NCBI GenBank assembly: GCA_016930235.1
Contig: JAFGHI010000007.1
Span: forward strand, 27,341 to 91,340
DNA: 64,000 nucleotides
From: Candidatus Omnitrophota bacterium
GTDB lineage: Bacteria > Omnitrophota > Omnitrophia > Omnitrophales > Aquincolibacteriaceae
Direction of reading: 5' to 3'
In this document: positions 4,312 to 18,276 of the stretch, one piece after another
Numbering within the stretch: position 1 is the first letter of the stretch
Layout of the letters: each line of letters starts with the position of its first letter
Notes under the pieces: generated by a model
Told to the model about the DNA's origin: nothing
The model's database searches: none
The model's input: the letters and a program-made list of their open reading frames with translations, nothing else
Position numbers and translations under genes: made by a program

Positions 4312-4324
4312 CCTCGTTGAATGA

Positions 4325-4507: not shown

Positions 4508-5947
4508 ATGCTATTCAATACGGTTGAATTCCTAATCTTTTTTGTCATTGTTTATTCTCTTTATCTTCTTCTCTCGTTTCGCTGGCAGAACCGGATGCTT
4601 TTGCTTGCGAGTTATATCTTTTACGGCTGGTGGGACTGGCGTTTCCTGGGTCTTATCCTTATTTCAACGGCGGTGGATTATTATTGCGGGATTAAGATTG
4701 AAGAATCGGCTGAGGAAATCCGGAGAAAAAAATACCTCGCCTTAAGTGTGATCGTCAATCTGGGGCTTCTCGGATTTTTTAAATACTTCAATTTTTTCGC
4801 GGAAAGCTTGCAGGAAGCCGTTTCATTGTTTGGATGGACAATCCATCCCGTCACGCTTCGGATTGTTTTACCGATCGGGATTTCCTTTTATACCTTTCAA
4901 ACGATGAGCTATACGATTGACATTTACCGTCGCGAGATTCAGCCGACGCGCCGGTTTTTCGATTTCGCCCTTTTTGTTGCTTTCTTTCCACAACTTGTAG
5001 CCGGTCCGATCGAAAGGGCCAAGCGGCTTTTGCCTCAAATTCTTGCTCCCCGGACATTGTCACCGGCTAAATTTCAGGAAGGGGCCTATTTGATCTTCTG
5101 GGGACTTTATCAAAAGGTTTTTATTGCGGATAATCTTGCCAGGATGGTTGATCCTGTTTTTGCTTCATCGGGACCCTATCCGGGCCTTCTTGTCCTCTAT
5201 ACGACTTATGCTTTTGCTTTTCAGATCTTCTGCGATTTTGCAGGGTACTCGAATATTGCCCGGGGTCTTGGCAAGATGATGGGATTTGAGATCATGATCA
5301 ATTTTAATCTGCCCTATTTTGCTACAAATCCACGTGAATTCTGGCAGCGGTGGCACATCAGCCTGTCCAGCTGGCTGCGGGATTATCTTTACATTCCGCT
5401 GGGGGGGAATCGTCGCGGGCGATGGCAGACGTACCGGAGTCTTCTTTGTACCATGTTGCTGGGAGGCTTGTGGCATGGCGCGGCGTGGACCTTCGTTTTT
5501 TGGGGAGCTTATCAAGGGCTGCTTTTGATGGGGCATCGTGTCTTAAGACCCTTCTTGGAATTGTTTAAGTTTGCTCGAGGATCTTTGTCGGAGAAGGGTT
5601 GGTTCGTCACCCGTATTTTCGTCTTCTTTCATCTTGTTTGTTTGGGATGGATATTTTTCCGCGCAGAAAATCTGTTACAAGCTTTTGAAATGTTCAGGAG
5701 CCTTTTGGGGATTCGTATGAAAGCCGGGATGGGGGTCTTGACCTACTCTTCTGAGATGCTTCCCACTCTTATTTATTATCTTTGGCTGTTAGTTTTTCTT
5801 CAGATTCTCTGCTACCGCAGGCATGTTCATCTTGCGGTTTGGAGTTTACCTGTTTGGGCGAAATCCCTTATTTTTATAGTTATGTTTTATTCTCTTGTTG
5901 CATTTGGAGCGCCGGGGGGTCATGAGTTTATCTACTTCCAATTTTAA
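4508..5947 (+). CDS. MBOAT family membrane-bound O-acyltransferase (AlgI/DltB/PatA-like)
   Basis: 479 aa and polytopic. It has the canonical MBOAT blocks: WQRWHISLSSWLRDYLYIPLGGNRRG and LLGGLWHGAAWTFVFWG with the conserved His. The N-terminus MLFNTVEFLIFF is typical of AlgI/DltB. Confidence 0.85.
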   Translation: MLFNTVEFLIFFVIVYSLYLLLSFRWQNRMLLLASYIFYGWWDWRFLGLILISTAVDYYCGIKIEESAEEIRRKKYLALSVIVNLGLLGFFKYFNFFAESLQEAVSLFGWTIHPVTLRIVLPIGISFYTFQTMSYTIDIYRREIQPTRRFFDFALFVAFFPQLVAGPIERAKRLLPQILAPRTLSPAKFQEGAYLIFWGLYQKVFIADNLARMVDPVFASSGPYPGLLVLYTTYAFAFQIFCDFAGYSNIARGLGKMMGFEIMINFNLPYFATNPREFWQRWHISLSSWLRDYLYIPLGGNRRGRWQTYRSLLCTMLLGGLWHGAAWTFVFWGAYQGLLLMGHRVLRPFLELFKFARGSLSEKGWFVTRIFVFFHLVCLGWIFFRAENLLQAFEMFRSLLGIRMKAGMGVLTYSSEMLPTLIYYLWLLVFLQILCYRRHVHLAVWSLPVWAKSLIFIVMFYSLVAFGAPGGHEFIYFQF

Positions 5948-6986
5948 ATATATTTCGAAATCTTTCTGGCTGATGATGATGATCTTTTTAGCCATCGAAA
6001 CGACGTCCTATGCCTTTATGCGAATCGTTGAAAAAAGTTGTCAAGGCGCCGACCTTATCCGTTACGATAAGGATTTTTTCTGCCGGAATTTGAAACCTCT
6101 GAGTTTTCCCGAGACTTTTCGCATGCGGCAAAAATATGATCGCCTCGGGAAAAAGTCTTTTCAAGAGATGGGCAAAGATGGCCCCTTTGATGTCATTGTT
6201 TTTGGGGACAGCAGCGGGATCAGCGGGTGGCCGGAAATCCTCAGGGATCAATATGAATTACGTATCGTGAACGTGACTTCGTACCGGCATCAAGATGAAT
6301 ACCCGGATGCTTTTCTCAATGTGATGCGAAATTATTACGAGCTAAATCAGGATCATCCCGCCATCCTTTTATGGACAACGATTACCGAGAGGGGGAAGAA
6401 ATACACTTTGCCTCGGTCATTATGGTCCGTCCTTTATGACAAACCAAAATGGCAGTTTGATTTTTCATTTTTGCCCTCAATTAAATTAATGAATTATCTC
6501 CGTTATAAAATCTATCGCTCGGATTACGTGGAAGTAATCCAATTGGGAAAGCACCGGCAAATGTTTCTAAGTTGGGATATCAAAGGGGTCGCCCAGACAC
6601 CGGCCGGCCAGGATGTCCTTACGGAGCAATTCAAGGAGGCCAAGGCGATAGCCCAAGAAAAGGGTTGCCGCCTGGGTTTTGTTTTCATCCCCACCAAGGT
6701 TCAACTTTATCCATGGCTTTTGAAGGACAAGATCAAAAATTGGGATTATGAGGTTCGAGGGTTACCTTATCTCATGGAAGCCGCTCGAAAAGCGGATATC
6801 CCTGTGTTGGATATCTCAAAGGAATTGCTAGCCACAGCCAAAGAAGTTTATGAGAAGAAAGGGGAGCTTTTGTGGTTCCCCGACGACAGCCATATGAATC
6901 TCGAAGGAGCGTCTTACGTGGCGGAGGCGGTTTATCCTTTCATTCAAGAGATCCGCAGAAAGCCACTGCCCCCTCAAAATGAATAA
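5922..6986 (+). CDS. AlgJ/AlgX/PatB-like SGNH-fold protein (membrane-anchored O-acetyltransferase/esterase partner of MBOAT), paralog 1
   Basis: Sits immediately downstream of the MBOAT gene and overlaps it. The track ORF starts at TTG 5895; ATG 5922 precedes a signal anchor. It has a GDSS block (DVIVFGDSSG) and a C-terminal DDSH block. Confidence 0.5.
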   Translation: MSLSTSNFKYISKSFWLMMMIFLAIETTSYAFMRIVEKSCQGADLIRYDKDFFCRNLKPLSFPETFRMRQKYDRLGKKSFQEMGKDGPFDVIVFGDSSGISGWPEILRDQYELRIVNVTSYRHQDEYPDAFLNVMRNYYELNQDHPAILLWTTITERGKKYTLPRSLWSVLYDKPKWQFDFSFLPSIKLMNYLRYKIYRSDYVEVIQLGKHRQMFLSWDIKGVAQTPAGQDVLTEQFKEAKAIAQEKGCRLGFVFIPTKVQLYPWLLKDKIKNWDYEVRGLPYLMEAARKADIPVLDISKELLATAKEVYEKKGELLWFPDDSHMNLEGASYVAEAVYPFIQEIRRKPLPPQNE

Positions 6987-7213
6987 AAATCATTTCTTAA
7001 CATCTCGCTTTAAGATGATATCGGTTCGGGATACAATCTTTAGGGCGTTGGGCTTATGGAATTCTATGTTTACGGCCTCGAAAGACGGGTTATCCTTAAA
7101 CAAAATTTCGTGTAGGAGCGATGACCCTGGCCGGGGAACGGAAATTGACCGGTATTCATTGACAGACGATTCTTATAAAGGTGACAAAAAGGATCCAACC
7201 TAAGGAGAATCTT

Positions 7214-8029
7214 ATGAAAAAGACATTATTGTTTCTTATCGGGGCTGTCAGTTTATTCAGTTTTATTTCTTGGGCCGCAAAATCGGCGAGTGACGAATTA
7301 CGGGTGGAAGGAATTGTTTATGAAGCGAATTCGCCCCAAGGATCGGTAGCCGTCATCAACGGGCAGTTTCTCCAAGAGGGAAATGTTTTCCAGGGATACC
7401 GTATCGAGAGTATTCAGGAAAGCTGGGTAACGGTCAGTCATGTGGGGACGGGGCAGACTGAAAAACTCGACATTGTGGGAGGAGAACCTTCCCGTGAAGT
7501 CTATAAGAAAGAGGAAAAAAAGGAAGCGGTGCAGCCAAAGCAGAATGCCGGAGTTACTGCGGTGCCTGTGAGGGGGCAGCCTGCGACCGCGGGGCCTATG
7601 GGTGAAATGATGGAACAGTTTCAGGGTGTTTTTGGGAAGGTGTGGGAGATAACGGCGATAACTGAAATGAAGAATATCCAGGCTTCTGCCAATGTTTATG
7701 CGATGGAACAGAACATCAATAGCGGGATCAAGATTTCAGCACTCATCAATCAGGGATTTCTGAGCGGATTCAGTTCTGATGGGGTCAAAGGCCCTTACCA
7801 GTATCGCATCGAGACCAAGAATGGGGTTGCTGTTGGGGCCGCCCCTGTGGATAAAAAATCGGGCCTGCGATCTTTTTATGTCGATTCGGAGGGACGAGTT
7901 CATGTTTCGGATAAAGGGCTTGCCGCCGAAGGGAGCCCGATCTATAAGCCGACGGGGCTTTCGATGCTACCGGTGGCTCCGCCGGGAGGTCCCAATTTTG
8001 AGGATTACGAAAAGTACTTTCAGGAATAA
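7214..8029 (+). CDS. Secreted hypothetical protein with PilP/GspC-like N-terminal beta domain
   Basis: ATG 7214 follows an AAGGAGAA RBS. A signal peptide (LLFLIGAVSLFSFISWAA) is present. The N-terminal segment LRVEGIVYEANSPQGSVAVINGQFLQEGNVFQGYRIESIQESWVTV resembles PilP/GspC HR domains. Confidence 0.35.
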   Translation: MKKTLLFLIGAVSLFSFISWAAKSASDELRVEGIVYEANSPQGSVAVINGQFLQEGNVFQGYRIESIQESWVTVSHVGTGQTEKLDIVGGEPSREVYKKEEKKEAVQPKQNAGVTAVPVRGQPATAGPMGEMMEQFQGVFGKVWEITAITEMKNIQASANVYAMEQNINSGIKISALINQGFLSGFSSDGVKGPYQYRIETKNGVAVGAAPVDKKSGLRSFYVDSEGRVHVSDKGLAAEGSPIYKPTGLSMLPVAPPGGPNFEDYEKYFQE

Positions 8030-8158
8030 ACTGATTTGTTGACGGCGTTTAAAAAGGGTTTTTGTTCTTTTAAGCGGTTGTCTCAGGGCTTATAATCGAA
8101 ACTGATTTTAGGAGTTCGAAGCATTCTGGATTATCTCGTTAATTTGAATTATGACAAG

Positions 8159-9775
8159 ATGAAAAAATACAAGCGGTTTTCCACACTCCTTATTTTATTT
8201 ACCGCCCTTTTTTTGTTCCCTGTTTTATCCCCAAGTGCATCGGAACCCGTAGGTCTTCTCAAAGCGTCTCAAGGGGAAGTGATGATTCTTCGGGAAGGGA
8301 GGATGTTCCCTGCCCGGGCGGGGGATGTGCTTTTTGCGGAAGATATCATCAAGACGGGAGCGGAGGGAAAGGCCAGCATTCATCACAATCTGGGTTTTGA
8401 TTCTGAGATGGGCTCTCAGGCAACCCTTCGCGTGGCGGAAGTTATTCTTGGTATTGCAGGGTTTAGCCTGGCCCGAGGGTGGCTCGAAACGGAGGGAAGC
8501 CTGGAAGACAAAGCAAAACAATATCGAATTGCGACGCCGGTTGCGATTACAGGGGTCCGGGGAACCGGTTTTCTTGTTATCGGTTCGATGGACGGGGCTT
8601 CGCTCGTGTCAGTCAAGAGCGGGACCGTGAGTGTTGGAGTGGGGGAGGAAGTCTTTCTGATGAATTCGGGCGAGCGAACCCGAGGATTTTTAGCGCAAGG
8701 GTATGAAACTCCCGAAAGCGGACAGCTTACAGTTCAGGATGCCGAGGCCTGGCGTTTAGATCAAGAAAAAGATTTAAAGGGCCGCGTGGAGCAAGTTTTG
8801 GATGAACTGATCGATCTTCAAAAAAAAGAGGATGCCGATTGGGAAGCTATCGAGCGGGAGGTAGTGACGGCTTCGCAGAAGATTATGACGGGCCAAGTGA
8901 CTCAAGAGGACCGGTTTTTCTTTCGCAAAGTGTTTGATCTGGAAGACCGGATGAGTGCCAGAAGACTTTTGGCAATCGATTTGCGCGAATGGGCAGGCTT
9001 GACGGATCCGGAAGCGGCCCAAAACGAACGGACTCGACTTCAAAAAGTCTGGCAGGCGAGGGATTGGCAAAGGAAGACGTGGGAAGATGTTTCTCGCGGG
9101 AAAATTCCGTCTTTAACCTCTCAGCCGGATAATCTCAAAAGTTATGACAATCGCGCTCAAAAGGATATGATGCAAAATCAGGACCGCAAACGCAGTGATA
9201 TCCCCATTTTGCCGGATACAAAATCTCTCTTTCCTGAAAATGTCGAGGGGGTTTATTTGGGGATGCCCGTGGGTGAATTCCGCCAAATCCGTCCGATGGC
9301 CCAACTGCCTCCTGTGATGCCGGAAGGGGATATTCCTATTGTTTATACCGAAAAGCAGCTCTCGGGGGGTGATTGGTCACGCCCCGGTTGGTTTACGGGG
9401 ATGTATACCTTTTACCGCGGGAAGATGATCCAGGGGACGTTTCTCGCATTTACGGGTGTCGAGACCTTACGAACCGGACTGGCTCAAAAATTCACAAAAC
9501 TTTACGGCAATCCTGGACGTTCCCGTTTGGAACCGGATTGGGCGCAGCCGGGAGTTTTTAAAGGAAGTACTCTTGAATGGCTGTCCGGTGATGTGGAGGT
9601 GATTTTGATTTCGCGATGGGTCCCCAGCTTACAGGGAAATACCCGGGGGTTGGAATTACGCATACGAATCGCGGGGTTGGAGACTTATTTGGAGAATGCC
9701 GGTCAGTTTGAAGAGAATCAAGAAAAACTTGCCGGGCAACTTGCCATTGATTTTCCCGAATATCGACTTTCTTAA
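8159..9775 (+). CDS. Secreted FecR-domain protein
   Basis: The track ORF starts at TTG 8144; ATG 8159 gives MKKYKRF... plus a signal peptide. A FecR-like segment (QGEVMILREG...AGDVLFAEDIIKTGAEGKASI...ITGVRGTGFLV) follows. The C-terminal ~300 aa are unassigned. Confidence 0.45.
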   Translation: MKKYKRFSTLLILFTALFLFPVLSPSASEPVGLLKASQGEVMILREGRMFPARAGDVLFAEDIIKTGAEGKASIHHNLGFDSEMGSQATLRVAEVILGIAGFSLARGWLETEGSLEDKAKQYRIATPVAITGVRGTGFLVIGSMDGASLVSVKSGTVSVGVGEEVFLMNSGERTRGFLAQGYETPESGQLTVQDAEAWRLDQEKDLKGRVEQVLDELIDLQKKEDADWEAIEREVVTASQKIMTGQVTQEDRFFFRKVFDLEDRMSARRLLAIDLREWAGLTDPEAAQNERTRLQKVWQARDWQRKTWEDVSRGKIPSLTSQPDNLKSYDNRAQKDMMQNQDRKRSDIPILPDTKSLFPENVEGVYLGMPVGEFRQIRPMAQLPPVMPEGDIPIVYTEKQLSGGDWSRPGWFTGMYTFYRGKMIQGTFLAFTGVETLRTGLAQKFTKLYGNPGRSRLEPDWAQPGVFKGSTLEWLSGDVEVILISRWVPSLQGNTRGLELRIRIAGLETYLENAGQFEENQEKLAGQLAIDFPEYRLS

Positions 9776-9790
9776 GTTCTTGAGGAAAAG

Positions 9791-10945
9791 ATGAAAAAGA
9801 AATTGATCAAACCCATGAAAAAAATGTCCTTACGCCAGAAAATATTTTTCTCCGGCCTCAGTTTGATCGTTTTATCTTTAGTTTTGTTTCTGACCGGAGA
9901 GTGGGCGATTCGAGCAAGCGGATGGGGGAGTCCTCGGCACCAGGAACTCTATGAAGACACTTTGCTGAAAGGAAAACCAAACGCACAGTATTGGGAGCTT
10001 GCCGAAGGCCGCAACCGTGTTATTTTGAATAATTGGGGATTTCATGACTGGGATCGAAACCCGCGGAGTGAGAAGTGGCGGACCCTCGTTTTGGGCGATT
10101 CCTTTGTGGCCGGTATGCAGGTGCCTACCTCAGATTTAATGACCACACGGCTTGAAGAGGCTTTCCAAGAGGCCGGGCAGTCTGCGGAAGTGATCAATGC
10201 GGGTGTTCCGGGGGCGAATACGCCCTATGAGTACATGCTTTGGAAGAAATTTTTTGAAGATCGTATTGAGGTCAATCAAATCATTTTGTGCATCTATCTT
10301 GGTAATGACCTGGCCAATAATACGAAGGCACTTCACCAGTTGACAGGGCGTCCTTTACTCAATTACGGTATTTACTTCAATGAAGCGGGTGAAATTGAGA
10401 CTCATCGTCTCATGGTTCATCCGTTTCAGGAGTTTGTGAGAGGGCTGACTCGTTATTCAGCTCTTTTGAATTTTATCTATACACGGCTTTATTTATTGAA
10501 ACAAGCCGGAGAGAAAAGTGCATTGAGTGATTATTTGGAAGGGCGCAAGCAGGATCCTGGATTCAGGGAAGAGCGGGAGGAGGCCTGGGAAGAAAGTAAA
10601 GGCTGGACACTTCGGTTGATTGATCGGTGGGCCGGGGAATTGAAGAGGCAGAAGATTCAGTTTAGGGTTGTGCTCATTTCAGCGCCGCCGAATCAAGACG
10701 AGGGGAAAAATTTACGTGCAGTCCTTAGGTTTGTTTCAGAGCTTGAGGTTTGGGGAGAACGCGCCGGCGTGCCGGTCCTGAATATGAGTTTTCCTGATTA
10801 CCGTCCCGAGGATATTTATACGAAGCGGGGTAAGACCTACGGCCATTTTAACCAGACAGGGCACACCGTGGCTGCCATGAAGATTTATCGGTGGCTCAAA
10901 CAAGATGGAAAGTGGCCGCCTTCCGAAAAAAAAGATCTTGTTTAA
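9791..10945 (+). CDS. Membrane-anchored SGNH/GDSL-like hydrolase or acyltransferase, AlgJ-like paralog 2
   Basis: N-terminal TM anchor. Block I is LVLGDSFVAGMQV. Asn and Gly blocks are present. A C-terminal GHFNQTGH block is also present. Confidence 0.5.
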   Translation: MKKKLIKPMKKMSLRQKIFFSGLSLIVLSLVLFLTGEWAIRASGWGSPRHQELYEDTLLKGKPNAQYWELAEGRNRVILNNWGFHDWDRNPRSEKWRTLVLGDSFVAGMQVPTSDLMTTRLEEAFQEAGQSAEVINAGVPGANTPYEYMLWKKFFEDRIEVNQIILCIYLGNDLANNTKALHQLTGRPLLNYGIYFNEAGEIETHRLMVHPFQEFVRGLTRYSALLNFIYTRLYLLKQAGEKSALSDYLEGRKQDPGFREEREEAWEESKGWTLRLIDRWAGELKRQKIQFRVVLISAPPNQDEGKNLRAVLRFVSELEVWGERAGVPVLNMSFPDYRPEDIYTKRGKTYGHFNQTGHTVAAMKIYRWLKQDGKWPPSEKKDLV

Positions 10946-11018
10946 AAGGCCAATAGTGAGTAGCTGTTAATATGAGTTTTTGACTGAAAGTGAGTCTGCA
11001 GATTAAATTCATAGCGAA

Positions 11019-12833
11019 ATGATAATACCTATCCTGACCTATGCGCTTTACTTCCTCGCGGTATCGATCATGGTCCCCCTTTTTTTAGATCGTGTTTCTT
11101 GGCACCAGCGGTTTGCCCTTGCCGTGAGTATTGGGGGCGTTGTGGCGACAGGGTCGGCCTTCGGGCTTTTCCTCATTTTTGGGCAAGGCTCGATATCCTC
11201 CGCTTTATGGTTTTTCTCGGGGATTTTTATCTTTGCCTTGTTCATCTATTTAGGGGAGAAAGTTAAAAAACCCTTTCATCTCGAGATGGGACAAGCCCAG
11301 AAGTCAAAAAGAATGATGATGGTTTTGGGGATCCTGTGTTGGGTTCTCTTTTGGGGATGGGCCGTTCGGGAAATGGTTTTTGTTAATCAAGAGGGTGTTT
11401 TCACGGGTTTAGTCTCTAATTTCGGAGATCTCAGCGAAAATATTGCGTTTACGTCTTATTTTGCGTGGGGGAATCATGATTTAGCCAATCCTCTTTACTC
11501 CGGGGTCTTGTTGCGCCATCATTTCTTGAGCAATTTCATGGCCTCGCTATTCCTGAGAGCGGGCGGGGATGTCCATCTTGTGTTTCAGATTCAGACCTTC
11601 TTTTTTGGCCTTCTTTCAACCTTCCTTTTCGGTTATTTTGTCAAAAGGATGACGGGAAGCCGTTTTTTGGGATGGCTTGCGCCCCTTCTCTTGTGGTTCG
11701 CCGGAGGGTTGCAGTGGGTTTACTTTCTTTTGGGAAAAGAGATAGATTGTCCGTGGTATAATTTTCTTTTGACCCGCATGTTACCGCAGCGTGCCTTTCT
11801 CCTTGGATTGCCGCTTGCTTGTACCGTCCTCATTTTTTTGTGGGAAGGATTCCTGTATTCCAGGATCAGGGTCTGGGCACTCTTGGGTTTTTTGACGGGA
11901 TTGTTACCGATGGCCAACATTTTTTTGTTTGTCGGGCTTGCATTCGTCGGTTTGTTTCTGGGTCTGTTGAAAGGGGTACGTATTTTTACTGTTTATCTTC
12001 TCATGCTGATTATAGTTGCTGTCCCGCAACTGATGTATCTTGCTGGGTCGTCAACCCATTCTTTTTTGACTTGGACTCAAGGATGGCGCGATATGGGCGA
12101 GAAAGGATTGGGGGCGTGGGTTCTGTTCTGGTTTCAGAATACCGGGTTTGTCTGGCCTTTTGTTCTTCTGGCTCTTTGTTTAAAAGCCCCTCGGCGCGAG
12201 CAGGTCATTTTTTATTTTCCTTTTGCGGGGCTTTTTCTTTTTGGCAATGTCCTTAATTTTACGCCGGATACGAATAATAATTACAACATCCTTTATGTTT
12301 GGATGATGGGCTCGATCCCGGTTATTTTGATGGGGATCAAAAAGGTCCGGGAGCTTCGTCCTTGGGGGGCGTCATGGGTTGCCGGTTTAATGGTCATACT
12401 CTTAATGGGAAGTGGGGCACTGGAATTCTACAAGCTTGTTGAACCGAAGGCATCCAATTATCTTATCGTAAGCAATAAGGATCTCGAATGGAGTCAAAAG
12501 CTTCGGGAAGTCACATCGCCTGATGAAGTCATCCTCATTCGGCCCATCCACAATCATCCTGTTTACTGGTCGGGGCGGAAAGTCCTCATGGGATATCCTG
12601 GTTGGGTTTGGTCCCATGGATGGGGAGCGGTCGAAGAGCGGGAGTCTGCCGCGCGTTCCATTTATCGCGGAAATGAGAAGGCGGAGCAATTCATAAGACG
12701 CTATAAGCTTGATGGAATTCTTGTCAGCCCGCTTGAAGCGAACCATTACGTGATTAATCAACACTTCCTCGATCAGGTTGGCAGGGAAATCTTGAGTGAA
12801 AAGGGTTATGCGTATTACCGCCTTAATGAATAA
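11019..12833 (+). CDS. Large polytopic membrane protein, member A of a three-paralog family in this window (putative GT-C-like glycan-processing protein)
   Basis: 604 aa with ~14 TM helices. Its C-terminal soluble domain (VILIRPIHNHPVYWSGRKVLMGYPGWVWSHGWG...SIYRGNEKAEQFIRRYKLDGILV) is shared with the proteins at 31951..33714 and 35593..37581. Confidence 0.45.
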   Translation: MIIPILTYALYFLAVSIMVPLFLDRVSWHQRFALAVSIGGVVATGSAFGLFLIFGQGSISSALWFFSGIFIFALFIYLGEKVKKPFHLEMGQAQKSKRMMMVLGILCWVLFWGWAVREMVFVNQEGVFTGLVSNFGDLSENIAFTSYFAWGNHDLANPLYSGVLLRHHFLSNFMASLFLRAGGDVHLVFQIQTFFFGLLSTFLFGYFVKRMTGSRFLGWLAPLLLWFAGGLQWVYFLLGKEIDCPWYNFLLTRMLPQRAFLLGLPLACTVLIFLWEGFLYSRIRVWALLGFLTGLLPMANIFLFVGLAFVGLFLGLLKGVRIFTVYLLMLIIVAVPQLMYLAGSSTHSFLTWTQGWRDMGEKGLGAWVLFWFQNTGFVWPFVLLALCLKAPRREQVIFYFPFAGLFLFGNVLNFTPDTNNNYNILYVWMMGSIPVILMGIKKVRELRPWGASWVAGLMVILLMGSGALEFYKLVEPKASNYLIVSNKDLEWSQKLREVTSPDEVILIRPIHNHPVYWSGRKVLMGYPGWVWSHGWGAVEERESAARSIYRGNEKAEQFIRRYKLDGILVSPLEANHYVINQHFLDQVGREILSEKGYAYYRLNE

Positions 12834-12895
12834 TGCCTAGATAGGCCCGGAAAATTGTTCATTTGAAAATGGTCTGTGAAAAAACACCCGCCTTC

Positions 12896-13621
12896 TTAAT
12901 TGATGATCGGATCTTTCCCGCGATTGGGGCGCTGCCAGGCTAAGTAGATGGCAGCTGAGATTCCCGTAGCTCCTAAAAGCATGGCCATCACCACGATTTG
13001 ATATCGGACGGCGATCAGGGGCGAGACCCCTGCCAGGATTTGTCCCGTCATCATGCCGGGCAGTGAGACTAGCCCGACGGCAAAGAAGGAATTGAGTAAG
13101 GGTATCAGGCAGGCCTGATAAGCCTTATTTCTCGCTTGAATATACGGGATGTTCCTTTCTGTTTCAGAATGAAATCGTTCGATGGCCAGGCTGAGGCCGT
13201 TCATGGCGTTTGCAAAGATCATTCCCGCGATGGGGATCAGGTACCGGGGTTCATGCCAGGGGCTGAGACGGATGACTCCGCCAATGACCAGGATAAGAGT
13301 GGAAAGGCATCCGATTGAAAGACTGGCCAATGTTTTCAGGTAAAGATCCGGACTTTTTAAGGTCAAAGGACGGATGGCGATCCAGCTTGCGATCATCAGC
13401 ATAAATGAAAGGATGCCTGTTACAAGCCAGGGTGAATGGCTTTCGAAGATATAGATAAGGACAAATCCAATTAAAATCAGCTGAATAAGCATTCTTGCTG
13501 TGGCATCAAGAAGGGTTTTGTAAGGTAGAGCCCAACGGATGTAAATAATCATGACAATAACGAGCGGGATCATTGCCACCGCAAGAAAAGGGACGGGAAT
13601 ATCATAAATGGAGTTCGTCAT
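12896..13621 (-). CDS. UPF0014/FetB-family ABC-type permease (iron-export FetB-like)
   Basis: 241 aa with 7 TM helices. The sequence has FetB/YbbM family character. No cognate FetA ATPase gene is adjacent. Confidence 0.55.
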   Translation of the reverse strand: MTNSIYDIPVPFLAVAMIPLVIVMIIYIRWALPYKTLLDATARMLIQLILIGFVLIYIFESHSPWLVTGILSFMLMIASWIAIRPLTLKSPDLYLKTLASLSIGCLSTLILVIGGVIRLSPWHEPRYLIPIAGMIFANAMNGLSLAIERFHSETERNIPYIQARNKAYQACLIPLLNSFFAVGLVSLPGMMTGQILAGVSPLIAVRYQIVVMAMLLGATGISAAIYLAWQRPNRGKDPIIN

Positions 13622-13752
13622 TTAAGGGCAAGTCCTTTTCGTCTATAATGCCATAGGGCTAAGAAGGTTAAAAGTCAAAAATGAAAAGTGAAAGGCCAAA
13701 AGCTTGTCTGACAGAACGTCGCGCGGGCGGGTCCTAGGTTAAAAATCAAGAG

Positions 13753-14496
13753 ATGTACCGCATTCAATGTTCGGAAATATGGGGAGGCATCAAGAACCTC
13801 AATACGGAGGTTTCGACTGCCTCGGTTCGTGCAAGTGTCTATGCCCAATCGGCGAAGGGTGAGAAAGGCGGGGATTTTTATTATTTCAGTGTTTGCGGGG
13901 CTGACCGGGTGACTCGTATTGTGATCGGTGATGTTACCGGTCATGGAGAAGAGGTAAGTGCTTTTAGTCAATGGGTTTATGAAATCATGAAGGCGCAAAT
14001 GAGCCAGGTCAAGAGCTGCGGTATCTTAAAGAAACTGAATGAAAGAATCCAGAACGAATGCTTTGCGTCTTTGGCAACGCTTGCTATTGTTTGCTTCTAT
14101 GTTCAAGATAAAAAACTTTATATTTCGTATGCAGGGCATCCTCCTGTTTTGATTGGCCGGAAGAAAGACGCGGATTGGAATCCTCTTCTTTTGGGTGCTA
14201 CGCCTGACGTTGCCAATTTACCGATCGGTGTGACTCGTGATGTTCAGTATGTTGACCGTGAAATTGCGCTTGAGACGGGGGACCGTTTGTTCTTTTATAC
14301 CGATGGCCTTATTGAGGCCCGGAATCAACAGGGAGAAGCTTTTGGGATGGATCGTCTTTTAGCGAGTGTGCGGAAAATAGGGATGGGGGATTCTGCGAAA
14401 GTTAAGGAGCAAGTACTTTGCGATCTGGATGCCTTTGCTTCTTTGTTAAAACTCAGGGATGATTTCACGCTTATTTCCGCAGAAGTTATTGCTTGA
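13753..14496 (+). CDS. PP2C/SpoIIE-family serine phosphatase (stand-alone catalytic domain)
   Basis: GGDFYYF and GDVTGHGEEVSAF motifs (metal-binding Asp-Gly). A C-terminal DGLIEA block is present. 247 aa with no sensor domain. Confidence 0.55.
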   Translation: MYRIQCSEIWGGIKNLNTEVSTASVRASVYAQSAKGEKGGDFYYFSVCGADRVTRIVIGDVTGHGEEVSAFSQWVYEIMKAQMSQVKSCGILKKLNERIQNECFASLATLAIVCFYVQDKKLYISYAGHPPVLIGRKKDADWNPLLLGATPDVANLPIGVTRDVQYVDREIALETGDRLFFYTDGLIEARNQQGEAFGMDRLLASVRKIGMGDSAKVKEQVLCDLDAFASLLKLRDDFTLISAEVIA

Positions 14497-14510
14497 ACAC
14501 TAAGACTTCA

Positions 14511-15965
14511 ATGGCCGGGGGAATAGCCAAAATGGGAAGTCAAAGAATGCACGTGAGGGATTGGGACCGCATCCTACGTGGTTTTAGCCCCTATCTTTTT
14601 TGGGGGACAATTATATTGTGGTTTTTCTACCTTTCCTTCGGAGATTCCATGATCACAGCTCTTTATCATAAGCAAAGCCTGCCGTTTTTAAACGGTATTC
14701 TGAGCGGGCGGAATGTGCATCCGCTCGAACATTATCTTCAGGTCGGGGGTTATACGATGGTGAAGATATCGATTCTAGCGGGATTGCTCATTTTCTTTTG
14801 CTTACTGCCGGTTAACTGGAAACTTTCATGCTTCATTATTTTTCTTTTATTATCATTGTTGGAAATGGGAATAAGGATTCGGGATTGGCGGGAGCGAATC
14901 CAGTATCCCAAGATCGATATCCCCGAAAATATCGGCTGGGAGTATGATTCTCCTTTAGGTTGGAAAATGGAGGAGAATGCAGAATTTACCCTCGTGAGTT
15001 ACGTCAATCATTTTTGGGCGAATATTCGGGTTAATTCGAAAGGACTTCGGGATGAGGAATATGCCTACGAAAAACCGCAGGGAGCTGAACGTATTCTTCT
15101 TCTGGGAGATTCGATGATCGTAGGGATGGAAGTTTCTAAGGAGAATGTCATCGATGCGCAATTAGAAAGAAAACTTGCGCAGCACGGGAATTATCAGGTG
15201 ATCAACGCGGGAGTAAGAGGTTATGCAACGGATCAATCGTATTTATTTTTAAAAGAGGAAGGCATCCGTTATCACCCCGATATTATTGTTTATGCCTTTG
15301 TTGAAAATGATCCTCTGGGAAATGTAACCGTGCATCGCCCCAATAGGAGATTTGGTAAACCTCACTTTATTCTTGATGATGCGGACGAACTTCTTCTCGA
15401 GGGGATGCCGGCCCCGCAAAGATTTAAAAAAGTCAATTTGTGGGAGATGTCGGACCCCCGGATAGAAAATTTATATAATGATGCTTTGATGCGGTATTTG
15501 AATTATCGCAAGAAACCTACTTTAATCGATTCCATCATGGGCGATTTTCTTCGACTCAAAATCTTCGAATGGATTTTAATGAGATTGGGTTATTTTAAGT
15601 ATACCGATTTGGAGATTTATCATAAGGAATTTCCCGAGAATATTCCTGTTTGGGTCACAGATTATGAATGGGAAATTACGGGAGCTATTCTTCAGAAGAT
15701 GAGCGAACTAGCCAATGCGATCGGGGCAAAGTTTTTAGTTTTTGAAGTCCCTTCCGTGTCGGACGAGGAGAGGGACGAAAGTCGCCTTCAAACCATTTGC
15801 AAGAAATGGAAGATACCTTATTTTAATATGAATCAAAAGTTTAAATCTTATCGAAATATATTCAGGCCACTACGGTTTATTTATGACGCGCACTGGACAA
15901 AATGGGGGCACCAGTTTGCGGCCAACGAACTTTATCAGGAACTAAGAAGACGAGGTTGGGTATAA
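14511..15965 (+). CDS. Membrane-anchored SGNH-like protein, AlgJ-like paralog 3
   Basis: The track ORF starts at TTG 14493, overlapping the phosphatase stop; the first in-frame ATG is at 14511. Two or three N-terminal TM helices. Block I is LLLGDSMIVGMEV and a C-terminal DAHWTKWGH block is present. Confidence 0.5.
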   Translation: MAGGIAKMGSQRMHVRDWDRILRGFSPYLFWGTIILWFFYLSFGDSMITALYHKQSLPFLNGILSGRNVHPLEHYLQVGGYTMVKISILAGLLIFFCLLPVNWKLSCFIIFLLLSLLEMGIRIRDWRERIQYPKIDIPENIGWEYDSPLGWKMEENAEFTLVSYVNHFWANIRVNSKGLRDEEYAYEKPQGAERILLLGDSMIVGMEVSKENVIDAQLERKLAQHGNYQVINAGVRGYATDQSYLFLKEEGIRYHPDIIVYAFVENDPLGNVTVHRPNRRFGKPHFILDDADELLLEGMPAPQRFKKVNLWEMSDPRIENLYNDALMRYLNYRKKPTLIDSIMGDFLRLKIFEWILMRLGYFKYTDLEIYHKEFPENIPVWVTDYEWEITGAILQKMSELANAIGAKFLVFEVPSVSDEERDESRLQTICKKWKIPYFNMNQKFKSYRNIFRPLRFIYDAHWTKWGHQFAANELYQELRRRGWV

Positions 15966-15979
15966 AGGGAAGGGAATTT

Positions 15980-17170
15980 ATGTTAAAAAAATTATTTTTC
16001 CGCTTGGCTGCGGTTAGCTTGGGTTTCTTTATGGTTTTCTTGCTGATCGAAGCGGGGCTTCGGTTGTGGGCGCCTTCCTGGCTGGAAACAAGGATGAAAT
16101 CGTTTAATTTCGAAAACGATCTTCGATCTTTTGGAACCGACCTTCACTGGCCTGTCGAAGAGAAGGACGGGTTTTACCTTAAGTTTATTCCGGGAAGCCG
16201 ATTCCGCGTTAATCATTATGAATTTGATCACGAGGTTCATATCAATGCTTGGGGTGGCCGCCGCACGCCTTTTTGCCAAGAAGGAAACGAGTCCTTTGTC
16301 ATTCCCTTTTTGGGGGATTCCTTCACTTTCGGTATTGGCGTTCGTGACGATGAAACCTTCGTTAATCTTTTGAGTGCGGAGATGAAAAAGTGTTTTCTCA
16401 ATCTGGGAATGTCCGGAGCCGCGCTTGATTATCAGATCCAGCTCATTAAAAGACGGCATGACGAACTGGGAAACCCCAGGTTATATGTTTTTAACCTATT
16501 TATGGGTAATGATTTATCCCCAAGTGTCAATGAGAAGCAGGAAAAACCGAGGATCGAAAACTTGGAATTGCTTACTAAAAAAGAACATCGGTCCTGGGAC
16601 AATTTTATTCTCACGGTTAATTATTTCTTTTACCATGTTGATTTTTTGCCGAAGAGCTATGCCTTGCAATATATTCGTGCCAAGTTGATCGCTCTTATCA
16701 ATCAAGCTAGGATGCGGAAAGGTTCAGCTGTTTTTGCAGATTCTATTTATGGTGTCATGGAGCGTTCTCAAGAACCGTCCTTACGGGAGTGGATCCATGG
16801 GAAAATAGCAAGCCTTGCCCGACTGGCAGAGGAAAAGGGGTTTGAGGTCTTCATCCTCATGATTCCGGACGGTCATCAAGTCTCAGACGGTCTTTTTCGT
16901 GAACGTGCTCGTTATTATGGAATACCGGTTGATCAATATGACCGTGAACTGCCCAACCGGGTGTTAGCGGATGAACTCGAGAAAGCAGGGATCCCTTATC
17001 TTGATCTCCTCCCTTGTATGCGTCAGTATGAAAGGGCCGAACTTTTAAAATCTCAAGGAGAGAATCTTTATTATCTTCAGGATAATCACCTGACTCCTCT
17101 TGGGCACCGGGTTGTTGCTGATTGTGCCATCGGCCCCTTAAGAAAATGGTATGAAGAAAAGGGTGTCTAA
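15980..17170 (+). CDS. Membrane-anchored SGNH-like protein, AlgJ-like paralog 4
   Basis: ATG 15980 follows AAAGGGAAGGG. The track N-terminal extension from 15902 lies inside the upstream gene. It has an N-terminal TM anchor. Block I is IPFLGDSFTFGIGV and a C-terminal DNHLTPLGH block is present. Confidence 0.5.
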   Translation: MLKKLFFRLAAVSLGFFMVFLLIEAGLRLWAPSWLETRMKSFNFENDLRSFGTDLHWPVEEKDGFYLKFIPGSRFRVNHYEFDHEVHINAWGGRRTPFCQEGNESFVIPFLGDSFTFGIGVRDDETFVNLLSAEMKKCFLNLGMSGAALDYQIQLIKRRHDELGNPRLYVFNLFMGNDLSPSVNEKQEKPRIENLELLTKKEHRSWDNFILTVNYFFYHVDFLPKSYALQYIRAKLIALINQARMRKGSAVFADSIYGVMERSQEPSLREWIHGKIASLARLAEEKGFEVFILMIPDGHQVSDGLFRERARYYGIPVDQYDRELPNRVLADELEKAGIPYLDLLPCMRQYERAELLKSQGENLYYLQDNHLTPLGHRVVADCAIGPLRKWYEEKGV

Positions 17171-17220
17171 ATGGAGACCCGGGAAAGTTTTGATAAGAAG
17201 TTTGGGAGGAATTAAAATCC

Positions 17221-18276
17221 ATGTCTTCCTTGATTAGCGTCGTCATGTCGGTTTATGACGGTGAGCGATATCTTCGAGAATCGCTTGAGAGTATCTTCAG
17301 CCAGACAATAGCGGATTTTGAATTCATCGTCGTTGACGATGGTTCCGGTGATGCGACATGGGAGATTTTAAACGAGGCACAAAAGAAAGATCGCAGGCTG
17401 ACTTTGGTTCGAAATGGTACCAATATCGGTTTGGCGGAGTCACTTAATAAAGCCCTGGCTTTGGTGAGAGGGAAATATGTTGCCAGGCAGGATGCGGATG
17501 ATGTGTCCCTGCCCCAAAGATTTGAAAGGCAAATCGGTTTTTTGAAGACTCATCCTGATATCGGGGTCTTGGGGACGGCGGTCAAGAAGGTTGATCGGGA
17601 AGATAAGGAGCAGGGTAACTATTACCCCCCCGAAGATCATGAAACGATTTTGGCCCGACTTCTGATCAATAACTGTTTCCGGCATCCGACACTGATGATG
17701 AAGGCATCGTTTTTGCGGCAGGTTCAAGGCTATGATATTCATGCTGCGTGGGCTGAGGATTATGATTTGCTCGTTCGCTTAAGGCGTCTGACGCGATTCG
17801 CGAATTTAAGGGAACCCTTGGTGAGATATCGTACCGGAACGGGTTTTTTTACGGGGCAACATCGACAGCAACAGATGGATACCGCTTTTCGGATTTCTTC
17901 CGAACTGTTGCGCGAATCCATGGAAGGGACCGAGTTCCCCCTGGATATTTACCGCAGGTTTTGGTGGTTGATCCAGCAGTATCATCTTCCGGGGGTCATC
18001 AAGAATACGGATTTCGGCGAACAGGATATCCGTGAGCTCCGAGGTGTGGTCAAAGTGCTGATGCGGACACCGGCCGGTAAAGATGTCTGGGGCGCTTCGT
18101 TATGCGGTCTTTCAGCGGCCTGGGGGCTTCATGGGAAGGGACGAGAAGGGAACGCCCTTTTTTCTTTGGTAATCAGCCGATTGAGGATAAATTTTGGATG
18201 GAAGAGCCTACTCCATTTTTTCCCCTCGCTTTTCTTCAGGTGGATGAAACGAAAATTATTAAGGGATCTGAGATGA
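17221..18276 (+). CDS. Family 2 glycosyltransferase
   Basis: The SVVMSVYDGERYLRESLESIFSQT...FEFIVVDDGSGD block is a GT2 DXD-type N-terminal domain. Its TGA stop overlaps the hemE ATGATG start. Confidence 0.7.
   Translation: MSSLISVVMSVYDGERYLRESLESIFSQTIADFEFIVVDDGSGDATWEILNEAQKKDRRLTLVRNGTNIGLAESLNKALALVRGKYVARQDADDVSLPQRFERQIGFLKTHPDIGVLGTAVKKVDREDKEQGNYYPPEDHETILARLLINNCFRHPTLMMKASFLRQVQGYDIHAAWAEDYDLLVRLRRLTRFANLREPLVRYRTGTGFFTGQHRQQQMDTAFRISSELLRESMEGTEFPLDIYRRFWWLIQQYHLPGVIKNTDFGEQDIRELRGVVKVLMRTPAGKDVWGASLCGLSAAWGLHGKGREGNALFSLVISRLRINFGWKSLLHFFPSLFFRWMKRKLLRDLR

What the first reader, a model, noticed from the sequence alone, without database searches (positions are those of the whole stretch)
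4508..17170. MBOAT acyltransferase plus four diverged paralogs of membrane-anchored SGNH (AlgJ/PatB-like) proteins within 13 kb
One MBOAT (AlgI/PatA/DltB-like) is immediately followed by an SGNH partner. Three further paralogs (9791, 14511, 15980) share the same architecture: N-terminal TM anchor, GDS block I and a C-terminal DxxH block. They are interleaved with a FecR-domain protein, a PilP-like protein, a FetB-like permease and a PP2C phosphatase. A one-MBOAT/four-SGNH expansion suggests O-acylation of several different glycan or peptidoglycan substrates, or esterases that tune it.
Basis: partly seen in the sequence, partly recalled or inferred. Interest (0 to 1): 0.6.

Follow-up and report, generated by a model that had tools for sequence, protein, structure and literature searches.

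The report
One MBOAT–SGNH acyltransferase pair, three extra SGNHs
An uncultured Omnitrophota bacterium carries an ordinary two-gene machine for adding acyl groups to a surface sugar polymer, and three further membrane-anchored esterase-type genes nearby belong to a different family and probably work on their own.

Summary
All five genes exist at the stated coordinates, and the MBOAT and SGNH assignments hold.

**MBOAT–S1 pair.** The MBOAT (4508-5947) has the catalytic His and ends in FIYFQF, the FxYxxF acyl-tyrosine shuttle motif of PatA/AlgI-type enzymes. Its partner S1 (5922-6986) starts inside those last MBOAT codons. The overlapping pair recurs in two other genomes, inside polysaccharide gene clusters. 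This is a standard MBOAT–SGNH O-acyltransferase module.

**"Four paralogs" is only partly right.**
- S2 (9791), S3 (14511) and S4 (15980) belong to one widespread family of membrane-anchored, canonical-order SGNH proteins.
- S1 belongs to a separate, rare family that shares only its C-terminal half with them.
- Block V is DxH, not DxxH, in S1, S3 and S4. S2 has no Asp there.
- None of the four is a true AlgJ/AlgX (circularly permuted), PatB or DltD family member.

**S2-S4.** They lie in two other gene strings, cut off from the pair by an opposite-strand gene. They are absent near the pair in both related genomes. S4's nearest relatives have no adjacent MBOAT. However, other members of their family do sit beside FIYFQF-type MBOATs, so one MBOAT serving several SGNH proteins is not excluded (about 12%).

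Verdict: new members of a known kind, modest interest.

The parts
4508..5947 (+). MBOAT acyltransferase, 479 aa. Conserved His283 (5348-5368, RWHISLS) and His323 (5465-5488, GLWHGAAW). C-terminal acyl-shuttle hexapeptide FIYFQF at 5927-5944, with Tyr476.
   Evidence: Pfam MBOAT 1.3e-24. DltB structures 8jem and 6bug at 2.4e-27. H283, H323 and F474-F479 are invariant in a four-sequence alignment. 71 of 76 related MBOATs end in F[IVL]YFQF. The motif's function is taken from PMC12148441.
5922..6986 (+). S1, the dedicated SGNH partner of the MBOAT, 354 aa. One N-terminal anchor (residues 15-33). Block I GDS (Ser97, 6201-6218). Non-canonical block II (VNVTS) and block III (TITER). PTK motif at 6687-6710. 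Block V DDSHMN (Asp322/His324, 6882-6899). Its ATG lies inside the MBOAT codons for HEFIYFQF, in the +1 frame.
   Evidence: Pfam ALGX 1e-8, covering only profile positions 2-132 of 268. In the family alignment G95, S97, P257, T258, Y263 and H324 are invariant. AF2 model pLDDT 88.9, best fold matches SGNH esterases. The pair is conserved in L002 and L003. Overlap shown.
7181..8029 (+). 282-aa protein with one N-terminal hydrophobic segment. Function unknown; only sub-threshold T2SSB/GspC-like similarity.
8144..9775 (+). 543-aa FecR-domain (LipL45-like) protein with an N-terminal signal or anchor. It ends 16 nt before S2.
   Evidence: FecR 23.8 bits (cutoff 24); LipL45 2.4e-7. N-terminal hydrophobic segment.
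9791..10945 (+). S2, a membrane-anchored canonical SGNH protein, 384 aa. GDS 10091-10108, block II NAGVPGA 10196-10216, block III GND 10298-10315, His in YGHFNQTGH 10838-10864. No Asp precedes the His.
   Evidence: Lipase_GDSL_2 9.8e-8. S4-family profile 2.6e-44 over the full length. Motifs. Anchor.
11019..12833 (+). 604-aa polytopic membrane protein, about 10 hydrophobic segments plus a C-terminal soluble part. Probably a GT-C-type glycosyltransferase. It has two paralogs in the window (31951-33714 + and 35593-37581 -).
   Evidence: No Pfam hit. phmmer to the paralogs gives 6e-11 and 8.5e-14; the second paralog has a weak Dpy19 hit. Hydrophobic segments.
12896..13621 (-). FetB-like UPF0014 permease on the opposite strand. 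It breaks the same-strand gene string.
   Evidence: UPF0014 5.8e-56.
13753..14496 (+). Stand-alone PP2C/SpoIIE-type phosphatase. It abuts S3.
   Evidence: SpoIIE 4.7e-32.
14511..15965 (+). S3, an SGNH protein of 484 aa with three N-terminal hydrophobic segments. GDS 15102-15119, block II NAGVRGY 15204-15224, block III END 15300-15317 (Gly replaced by Glu, Asn kept), block V YDAHW 15882-15911.
   Evidence: Lipase_GDSL_2 1e-6. S4-family profile 6.9e-54. Motifs. Hydrophobic segments.
15980..17170 (+). S4, a membrane-anchored canonical SGNH protein, 396 aa. GDS 16310-16327, block II NLGMSGA 16400-16420, block III GND 16502-16519, block V QDNHL 17078-17107.
   Evidence: Lipase_GDSL_2 3e-9. 174 homologs; GDS invariant across 73 aligned sequences. 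AF2 pLDDT 90.5. Best fold match is CgnD, then generic GDSL esterases.
17221..18276 (+). GT2 glycosyltransferase directly after S4. Context only.
   Evidence: Glycos_transf_2 2.4e-32.
2714..4027 (+). PMT/GT-C-like membrane glycosyltransferase upstream of the MBOAT. Context only.
   Evidence: PMT 1.2e-4, about 8 hydrophobic segments.

Best explanation
The region contains two different things.

**(1) MBOAT–S1 (4508-6986): one complete, translationally coupled, two-component O-acyltransferase.**
- By analogy with PatA/PatB, the MBOAT takes an acyl group (most likely acetyl) from cytoplasmic acyl-CoA.
- His323 catalyses its transfer to Tyr476 in the C-terminal FIYFQF tail on the outer face of the membrane.
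- The membrane-anchored partner S1 picks it up on Ser97 (His324/Asp322 acting as base and acid) and passes it to a hydroxyl of a surface or periplasmic glycan.
- In relatives the pair sits in polysaccharide clusters (Wzx, GT2, GT4, sugar methyltransferases). The target is therefore more likely an O-antigen- or EPS-type glycan than peptidoglycan.

**(2) S2, S3 and S4: three members of a separate, widespread family.**
- These are N-terminally anchored SGNH proteins facing outward, in canonical S-G-N-H order. Their C-terminal half is homologous to the N-terminal half of AlgJ/AlgX.
- They sit in two other gene strings: FecR-domain protein–S2–GT-C-like protein, and PP2C–S3–S4–GT2.
- They most likely act independently of the MBOAT, as esterases or transferases on envelope glycans or lipids. 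The surrounding genes are rich in periplasmic-face glycosyltransferases.

**Shown:** gene identities, motifs, folds, the gene overlap, and conservation of the pair.
**Inferred:** the acyl donor, the acceptor, the direction of the reaction, and the independence of S2-S4.
For: **The pair**
- Pfam and DltB-structure hits for the MBOAT.
- H283, H323 and FIYFQF are invariant.
- The acyl-Tyr shuttle mechanism is published for this motif (PMC12148441).
- S1's ATG lies inside the MBOAT's last codons. The same +1-frame overlap is open in 29 related loci.
- The MBOAT–S1 pair is conserved in L002 and L003, inside sugar-modification clusters.
- Ser97 and His324 are invariant in 19 family members and stay near-invariant (GxS) or invariant (His) across 45 very diverse MBOAT-downstream partners.
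- The S1 model is an SGNH fold.

**S2-S4 as a separate family**
- Profile scores are 3e-44 (S2), 7e-54 (S3) and 2e-110 (S4) over the full length, against 2e-17 over the C-terminal part only for S1.

**Independence of S2-S4**
- No S2-S4 homologs lie within 10 kb of the orthologous pairs.
- S4's nearest homologs (31-40% identity) have no MBOAT on the DNA recovered. One follows a Bac_transf gene and one lies in an FkbM/carbamoyltransferase cluster.
- The opposite-strand FetB gene and intergenic gaps of 195, 115 and 74 nt split the region into at least three strings.
- Only about 3 of 26 long related MBOAT loci carry any SGNH beyond the adjacent partner.
- No second MBOAT or AT3 gene was found among the Pfam-scanned larger ORFs of the 64 kb, and phmmer found no second MBOAT among all ORFs of at least 80 aa.
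Against: - S2-S4 belong to a family whose members do sit directly upstream of FIYFQF-type MBOATs in 12 of 80 metagenome loci and in L011. One locus appears to encode an MBOAT–SGNH fusion (L082). They could therefore be competent MBOAT partners.
- S2 lacks the Asp before the His, exactly as the MBOAT-adjacent clade does.
- Four SGNH genes within 13 kb of a single MBOAT is unusual among the 80 loci sampled.
- No biochemical data exist. The acyl group and the acceptor are unknown.
- Only 64 kb of the genome was seen, so other MBOAT or AT3 genes may exist elsewhere.
Confidence: 0.62

Rival explanations
1. Hub model. The single MBOAT loads its C-terminal acyl-tyrosine tail, and all four SGNH proteins draw on it. 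Each would acylate a different glycan or peptidoglycan acceptor.
For: - The S4 family includes genuine MBOAT neighbours (12 of 80 loci upstream of the MBOAT, plus L011) and a possible fusion in L082.
- S2 shares the Asp-less block V of that MBOAT-adjacent clade.
- All four proteins keep Ser and His and are anchored at the same membrane face.
- No other MBOAT or AT3 gene was found in the 64 kb.
- There is precedent: AlgI works with both AlgJ and AlgX (PMC9487903).
Against: - S2-S4 are absent around the orthologous MBOAT–S1 pairs.
- S4 orthologs lack a neighbouring MBOAT.
- The genes lie in separate strings broken by an opposite-strand gene.
- S2-S4 keep the canonical block II Gly and block III Asn typical of hydrolases. 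The MBOAT-adjacent clade keeps them too, so this point is weak.
Confidence: 0.12
2. Write/erase model. MBOAT–S1 installs O-acyl groups. One or more of S2-S4 are O-acyl esterases that remove or trim them, as Ape1 does next to PatA/PatB.
For: - S2-S4 have the full canonical S-G-N-H signature.
- Their N-terminal halves match GDSL esterases and thioesterases at 1e-5 to 1e-9.
- S4's fold matches are hydrolases: CgnD, acetyl xylan esterases and TesA.
- The patA–patB–ape1 cluster is a precedent (PMC12148441).
Against: - No CBM or other substrate-targeting domain was detected.
- The same motifs occur in the MBOAT-adjacent, presumed transferase clade of the family, so the motifs do not separate esterase from transferase.
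- There is no conserved linkage of S2-S4 to the pair.
Confidence: 0.16
3. S2-S4 have nothing to do with glycan acylation. They are membrane-anchored periplasmic lipases, lysophospholipases or peptidases acting on envelope lipids, lipoproteins or prey material.
For: - JGI names for family members are "lysophospholipase L1-like esterase".
- There are weak NCBIfam hits to thioesterase I/lysophospholipase L1.
- The best structural match, CgnD, acts as a slow peptidase.
Against: Family members whose context is known mostly sit in glycan-biosynthesis clusters with GT2, GT4, Wzy, Bac_transf, epimerases and carbamoyltransferase. In the window they adjoin GT-C-like and GT2 genes.
Confidence: 0.1

Closest known systems
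PatA/PatB peptidoglycan O-acetyltransferase (with Ape1 esterase) of Gram-negative bacteria
   Same: - A separate MBOAT plus an N-terminally anchored periplasmic SGNH protein in canonical S…H order.
- The MBOAT carries a C-terminal FxYxxF acyl-tyrosine shuttle (FIYANF in N. gonorrhoeae PatA, FIYFQF here) and a catalytic His.
- A cluster that also holds a further SGNH protein has precedent (Ape1).
   Different: - There is no significant sequence match of S1-S4 to PatB. CjPatB is only rank 40 among the generic SGNH fold hits for S4.
- Block V is DxH (or lacks Asp), not DxxH.
- The genomic context in relatives is polysaccharide synthesis, not a peptidoglycan locus.
- No CBM-bearing Ape1 homolog is present.
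AlgI/AlgJ/AlgX (alginate) and WssH/WssI (cellulose) acetylation systems; Pfam ALGX PF16822
   Same: - An MBOAT with the same type of C-terminal tail.
- One MBOAT can work with more than one SGNH-like protein.
- S1, S3 and S4 share the AlgJ/AlgX-type "P-x-K … D-x-H-(W)" half-domain. The S4-family profile hits AlgJ at 9e-13 and AlgX at 2e-11.
   Different: - AlgJ/AlgX are circularly permuted (H-S-G-N), with a GTSYS block I and a block III Tyr (PMC9487903).
- The proteins here have canonical order, with GDS near the N-terminus and the His at the C-terminus.
- They match only positions 2-132 of the 268-position ALGX profile.
- No AlgF/WssF-type or polymer-synthase genes are nearby.
DltB/DltD/DltX/DltC teichoic acid D-alanylation
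   Same: - The closest solved MBOAT structures are DltB (2.4e-27).
- DltD is likewise an N-terminally anchored, canonical-order SGNH-like partner.
- The FxYxxF shuttle is the same chemistry.
   Different: - Here the shuttle motif is fused to the MBOAT, not carried on a DltX microprotein.
- No DltC, DltA or DltX genes were found.
- There is no Pfam DltD hit for S1-S4.
- The NCBIfam DltB score of 169 is far below the equivalog cutoff of 375.
Uncharacterised membrane-anchored SGNH family (Pfam Lipase_GDSL_2 plus the N-terminal half of ALGX; NCBIfam "LA_2490 family SGNH/GDSL-type esterase" of Leptospira is a distant relative)
   Same: S2, S3 and S4 match a profile of this family over their full length. 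They share its GDS, N-x-G-x-x-G, GND and (D)xH motifs and the Glu…Arg motif at the end of the membrane anchor.
   Different: - No member has a tested function.
- Scores to the Leptospira models are far below their cutoffs (32.9 against 325).
- Three members placed close together near one MBOAT is uncommon.

Membership tests
MBOAT (PF03062), bacterial polymer-acylating type | Profile match above the curated threshold | tested here: met
   87.6 bits against a cutoff of 27. DltB structures hit at 2.4e-27.
MBOAT (PF03062), bacterial polymer-acylating type | Invariant catalytic His | tested here: met
   H323 (GLWHGAAW) and H283 (RWHISLS) are invariant in alignment A4 and align with the DltB His region.
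MBOAT (PF03062), bacterial polymer-acylating type | C-terminal FxYxxF acyl-shuttle hexapeptide fused to the MBOAT (PatA/AlgI type, not DltB type) | tested here: met
   The protein ends …HEFIYFQF*. 71 of 76 related MBOATs end in F[IVL]YFQF. The motif is defined in PMC12148441.
Two-component MBOAT–SGNH acyltransferase (PatAB-like mechanism) | SGNH partner encoded next to the MBOAT, membrane-anchored, with its catalytic domain outside the cytoplasm | tested here: met
   S1 overlaps the MBOAT 3' end by 26 nt. It has an N-terminal hydrophobic helix with upstream Lys residues. The pair is conserved in L002 and L003.
Two-component MBOAT–SGNH acyltransferase (PatAB-like mechanism) | Conserved Ser nucleophile and His base in the partner | tested here: met
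   S97 and H324 are invariant in 19 family members, and D322 is mostly kept. His is invariant and GxS is at least 90% conserved across 45 diverse partners.
Two-component MBOAT–SGNH acyltransferase (PatAB-like mechanism) | Acyl transfer from acyl-CoA via Tyr and Ser to a polymer | not testable with these tools
   Needs biochemistry, for example autoacylation of Tyr476 and transfer from an acetyl-FIYFQF peptide.
AlgX/AlgJ family (PF16822) | Circularly permuted block order H-S-G-N (PMC9487903) | tested here: not met
   In S1-S4 the GDS Ser lies 200-260 residues before the His. Only profile positions 2-132 of 268 are matched. The profile hits AlgJ residues 32-145 and AlgX residues 65-169 only. Foldseek top hits are canonical SGNH folds.
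AlgX/AlgJ family (PF16822) | Block V D-x-H motif | tested here: met
   Present in S1 (DSH), S3 (DAH) and S4 (DNH). S2 lacks the Asp.
PatB family | Block V DxxH and an atypical block II (Ser in place of Gly) | tested here: not met
   Block V is DxH or lacks Asp. S2-S4 have the canonical N-x-G-x-x-G block II. S1 has N-V-T with no Gly, which is non-canonical but shows no detectable PatB similarity.
PatB family | Two "wing" beta-hairpins over the active site | not tested
   Model coordinates could not be inspected. CjPatB (8tlb) is only rank 40, E 6e-5, among generic SGNH hits for S4 and is absent from S1's top 50.
DltD family (PF04914) | Profile match, with DltX/DltC/DltA partners | tested here: not met
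   No DltD hit for S1-S4 at E<=0.1. No Dlt genes were found in the window.
SGNH/GDSL hydrolase superfamily (Lipase_GDSL_2, PF13472) | Blocks I (GDS), II (G), III (GxND) and V (His) in canonical order | tested here: met
   S2 and S4 have all four blocks. S3 has END in block III, with the Asn kept. Scores are 33.1, 29.8 and 38.1 for S2, S3 and S4 against a cutoff of 32.9, so S3 is below it. S1 has blocks I and V only.
SGNH/GDSL hydrolase superfamily (Lipase_GDSL_2, PF13472) | Alpha/beta/alpha SGNH fold | tested here: met
   AF2 models: S4 pLDDT 90.5 and S1 88.9. Foldseek hits to GDSL esterases are at probability 1.00 for S4 and 0.89-1.00 for S1. S2 and S3 were not modelled.

The most novel reading that the evidence does not exclude
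The FIYFQF acyl-tyrosine tail of a single MBOAT acts as a shared donor for several structurally different, membrane-anchored SGNH transferases: S1 plus one or more of S2-S4. One acyl-translocating enzyme would then decorate several envelope polymers. This would be a hub-and-spoke version of the one-to-one MBOAT–SGNH pairs described so far.
Probability: 0.12. Interest if true: 0.65.

Novelty: new member of a known kind. Interest (0 to 1): 0.3.

Why it matters
**If the plain reading is right**
- This adds an Omnitrophota example to the known MBOAT–SGNH envelope-acylation systems.
- The partner protein evolves very fast. The S1 family has only about two dozen full-length representatives among 1.84 billion cluster representatives, and partners of closely related MBOATs fall into at least six Pfam families or none.
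- There is a large, uncharacterised family of canonical-order SGNH proteins whose C-terminal half is homologous to the first half of the circularly permuted AlgJ/AlgX. This is useful for understanding how that permutation arose and for annotating these genes correctly. They are now labelled "AlgX", "lysophospholipase" or "hypothetical".

**If the hub reading were right**
- It would change how MBOAT–SGNH specificity is understood, and it would be testable with acetyl-FIYFQF peptides.

Tried and rejected
- **Exact-sequence look-up of the MBOAT:** not on record.
- **Word-indexed homolog searches for S1,** alone and as a 19-sequence profile: these returned only itself plus two proteins. The exhaustive HMMER search was needed to find the family.
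- **Genome scan with the 19-sequence alignment:** failed for lack of a conserved stretch. A six-sequence alignment worked but found only two loci.
- **Promoter and terminator scan of 4000-18500:** counts not above the shuffled controls, so uninformative for operon boundaries.
- **Rfam and tRNA scans:** nothing in the window.
- **Nearest-neighbour scores to place S2 and S3 with MBOAT-adjacent or orphan family members:** inconclusive, about equidistant from both.
- **Block II Gly/Ser criterion for transferase versus hydrolase (PMC12148441):** it does not discriminate here, because the MBOAT-adjacent clade of the family also keeps the canonical Gly and Asn.
- **The 604-aa membrane protein next to S2 as a hidden acyltransferase:** rejected as unsupported. 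It has no Pfam or PDB hit, and its two paralogs look GT-C/Dpy19-like.
- **Literature search for Leptospira MBOAT/GDSL clusters:** found nothing.

Full report
**Source and layout**

The window comes from an uncultured Candidatus Omnitrophica (Omnitrophota) genome. S4 is identical to an NCBI protein named [quoted passage not shown], and identical contigs occur in Logan run SRR13394437.

The genes in 2714-22967, all on the + strand unless marked, are:

| Coordinates | Gene |
|---|---|
| 2714-4027 | PMT/GT-C-like glycosyltransferase |
| 4508-5947 | MBOAT |
| 5922-6986 | S1 |
| 7181-8029 | 282-aa protein, unknown function |
| 8144-9775 | FecR-domain protein |
| 9791-10945 | S2 |
| 11019-12833 | 604-aa polytopic membrane protein |
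| 12896-13621 (−) | FetB-like permease |
| 13753-14496 | PP2C/SpoIIE phosphatase |
| 14511-15965 | S3 |
| 15980-17170 | S4 |
| 17221-18276 | GT2 |
| 18270-20814 | hemE, then hemY |
| 20868-22967 | sulfatase/LtaS-like protein |

The observed genes are real and lie at the stated coordinates.

**The MBOAT and its partner**

The MBOAT scores 87.6 bits on Pfam MBOAT. It matches the solved DltB structures at 2.4e-27. It is not a DltB equivalog: it scores 169 bits against a cutoff of 375.

It ends in …HEFIYFQF. This is the FxYxxF "acyl shuttle" hexapeptide. PatA auto-acetylates its Tyr from acetyl-CoA, and PatB uses that acetyl-Tyr as donor (PMC12148441). H283, H323 and the six C-terminal residues are invariant among four related MBOATs. 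Of 76 complete related MBOATs from metagenomes, 71 end in F[IVL]YFQF.

S1's ATG (5922) lies inside the codons for that tail, in the +1 frame. The genes therefore overlap by 26 nt. The same frame is open across the MBOAT stop in 29 related loci examined.

In the one genome-collection scan, only two loci encoded an S1 relative: one Omnitrophota MAG and one MAG labelled Actinomycetes. In both, the S1 relative overlaps the 3' end of a 59-65% identical MBOAT. There the pair sits among Wzx flippase, GT2, GT4 and FkbM/CmcI methyltransferase genes, or among WbqC, PIG-L and CmcI genes. This points to a surface polysaccharide as the acceptor rather than peptidoglycan.

**What S1 is**

S1 is rare. An exhaustive HMMER search of 1.84 billion representatives gave 190 hits at E<=1e-3. 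Only about two dozen of these covered the full length. In 19 aligned members, G95, S97 (block I G-x-S), P257-T258 (PTK), Y263 and H324 are invariant. Asp322, two residues before the His, is usually kept. Canonical block II Gly and block III Asn are absent; S1 has N-V-T and T-E-R instead.

The AF2 model (pLDDT 88.9) finds canonical SGNH esterases as its best solved-structure matches: rhamnogalacturonan acetylesterase, acetyl xylan esterase and TesA.

The Pfam ALGX hit (35.6 bits) covers only profile positions 2-132 of 268. It aligns S1's C-terminal "PTK…DxH" half with the first half of AlgJ/AlgX. AlgJ/AlgX are defined by a circular permutation (H-S-G-N) (PMC9487903). S1 has its Ser N-terminal to its His, so it is not an AlgX-family member in the strict sense. 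It is not PatB (DxxH) or DltD either; neither gave a profile hit.

Partners of this MBOAT clade are extremely diverse. Among 45 downstream partner ORFs the mean column identity is 11%. Only the His (invariant) and G-x-S (at least 90%) are conserved. Pfam assigns 10 to Lipase_GDSL_2, 7 to DUF1574, 3 to Lipase_GDSL, 2 to ALGX, 2 to NonGDSL, 1 to DltD, and the rest to nothing. S1 is one lineage of this fast-evolving partner set.

**What S2-S4 are**

Pairwise BLASTP shows weak links among S2, S3 and S4 (2e-9 to 2e-4). S1 links only to the C-terminal half of S4.

A profile of 73 S4 homologs has GDS invariant and the N-x-G, N-D and His positions at least 90% conserved. Against it the scores are:

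| Protein | E-value | Extent |
|---|---|---|
| S4 | 2e-110 | full length |
| S3 | 7e-54 | full length |
| S2 | 3e-44 | full length |
| S1 | 2e-17 | C-terminal third only |

. S2-S4 are therefore three diverged members of one widespread family, and S1 is a different family.

The family profile matches ordinary GDSL esterases with its N-terminal half (blocks I-III). Its C-terminal half matches AlgJ (9e-13) and AlgX (2e-11). The family thus looks like the unpermuted relative of AlgJ/AlgX.

S4's AF2 model (pLDDT 90.5) best matches the SGNH hydrolase CgnD and then generic GDSL esterases. CjPatB appears only at rank 40.

Motifs:

| Protein | Block I | Block II | Block III | Block V |
|---|---|---|---|---|
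| S2 | GDS | NAGVPG | GND | YGH (no Asp) |
| S3 | GDS | NAGVRG | END | DAH |
| S4 | GDS | NLGMSG | GND | DNH |

S2 and S4 have one N-terminal anchor each. S3 has three hydrophobic segments, the last of which is homologous to the anchor of the others. Positive charges lie upstream of the anchors, so the catalytic domains should face outward.

**Do S2-S4 work with the MBOAT?**

Against:
- No S2-S4 homolog lies within 10 kb of the orthologous MBOAT–S1 pairs.
- S4's closest homologs have no MBOAT on the DNA recovered. P0158 (34% identity) sits in a cluster with FkbM, SxtJ, DUF5989 and carbamoyltransferase genes. P0165 (31%) follows a Bac_transf gene.
- More distant members in L008 and L010 also lack an MBOAT within the 6 kb of flank fetched.
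- The cluster is split by the opposite-strand FetB gene and by intergenic gaps.
- Among roughly 26 long related MBOAT loci, extra SGNH genes beyond the partner occur in about three (L016, L053, L057).

For:
- 12 of 80 metagenome loci, and L011, have an S4-family SGNH immediately upstream of a FIYFQF MBOAT.
- One ORF (L082) appears to fuse an MBOAT to such an SGNH.
- That MBOAT-adjacent clade lacks the Asp before the His, as S2 does.
- No other MBOAT or AT3 gene was found among the ORFs examined in the 64-kb window.

S2 and S3 are about equidistant from MBOAT-adjacent and orphan family members. The published transferase signature, a non-Gly block II, does not discriminate here, because the MBOAT-adjacent clade also keeps the canonical Gly and Asn.

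**Conclusion**

The best-supported reading has two parts. First, there is a complete, translationally coupled MBOAT–S1 O-acyltransferase module that works as PatA/PatB does. The relay runs acyl-CoA → His-catalysed loading of Tyr476 → Ser97 of S1 → glycan hydroxyl. Confidence in this part is about 0.85. Second, there are three neighbouring but probably independent membrane-anchored SGNH enzymes. They sit in a region rich in periplasmic-face glycosylation genes: several GT-C-like proteins, GT2 genes and an LtaS-like sulfatase. Confidence in their independence is about 0.55.

The rivals are a one-MBOAT hub, Ape1-like erasers, and lipases. All remain open and are listed with tests. Nothing here lies outside known kinds of system, so interest is modest.

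Noticed in passing
L005 2562-6671; L010 5579-7137; L057 13593-17425 (not in the window): S4-family SGNH genes recur beside the SxtJ / DUF5989 / carbamoyltransferase gene set, in three of the contexts examined. This hints that some members of the family serve an O-carbamoylation or related pathway rather than an MBOAT.
   Followed up: partly
window 5922-5947, and MBOAT 3' ends in L002, L003, L014-L092: The apparently conserved N-terminal motif of the S1 family (LSTFNFKK) is simply the +1-frame reading of the MBOAT codons for FIYFQF plus the stop. Five of 29 loci have an ATG at exactly the same offset. The conservation reflects gene overlap, not protein function. The automatic gene call (337 aa, P0001) starts too late.
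   Followed up: yes
window S2 ~9890-9910, S3 ~14850-14880, S4 ~16040-16065; S1 residue E26 (~5997): A Glu followed about four residues later by Arg ("ExxxR") sits at the outer end of the membrane anchor. It occurs in S2, S3, S4 and nearly all S4-family members, whether or not they are MBOAT-adjacent. S1-family members also keep a Glu in the anchor. Its function is unknown.
   Followed up: partly
L082 7-2559: One metagenome ORF matches both the MBOAT profile (512 bits) and the S4-family SGNH profile (130 bits). It is either a natural MBOAT–SGNH fusion or a frameshifted or misassembled pair.
   Followed up: no
window 2714-4027, 11019-12833, 29952-31943, 31951-33714, 33718-34836 (-), 35593-37581 (-); GT2 at 17221-18276 and 34833-35666 (-): The window is unusually rich in GT-C/PMT-like polytopic glycosyltransferases, one of which carries a PA14 domain. 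It also holds a three-member paralog family with no Pfam assignment and two GT2 genes. This suggests extensive periplasmic-face glycosylation in this organism.
   Followed up: partly
L002 (JAJCYG010000045.1): A MAG labelled "Actinomycetes bacterium" has 37.5% GC in this locus and carries an MBOAT–S1 pair whose MBOAT is 65% identical to the Omnitrophota one. The taxonomic label looks doubtful.
   Followed up: no
window 18270-20814: The haem biosynthesis genes hemE and hemY follow directly, on the same strand and with overlapping or short gaps, after the PP2C–S3–S4–GT2 string. This is an odd functional mix for one gene string.
   Followed up: no
window 1-64000: GC skew is positive in every 2-kb bin and most genes are on the + strand. 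This fits a window lying wholly on one replichore. There are no tRNA or Rfam hits anywhere in the 64 kb.
   Followed up: no
window 23945-29615 and 39771-46955: Tad/Flp-type pilus genes (TadE/G-like, RcpC, secretin, two T2SSE ATPases, two T2SSF) flank the glycosyltransferase region.
   Followed up: no
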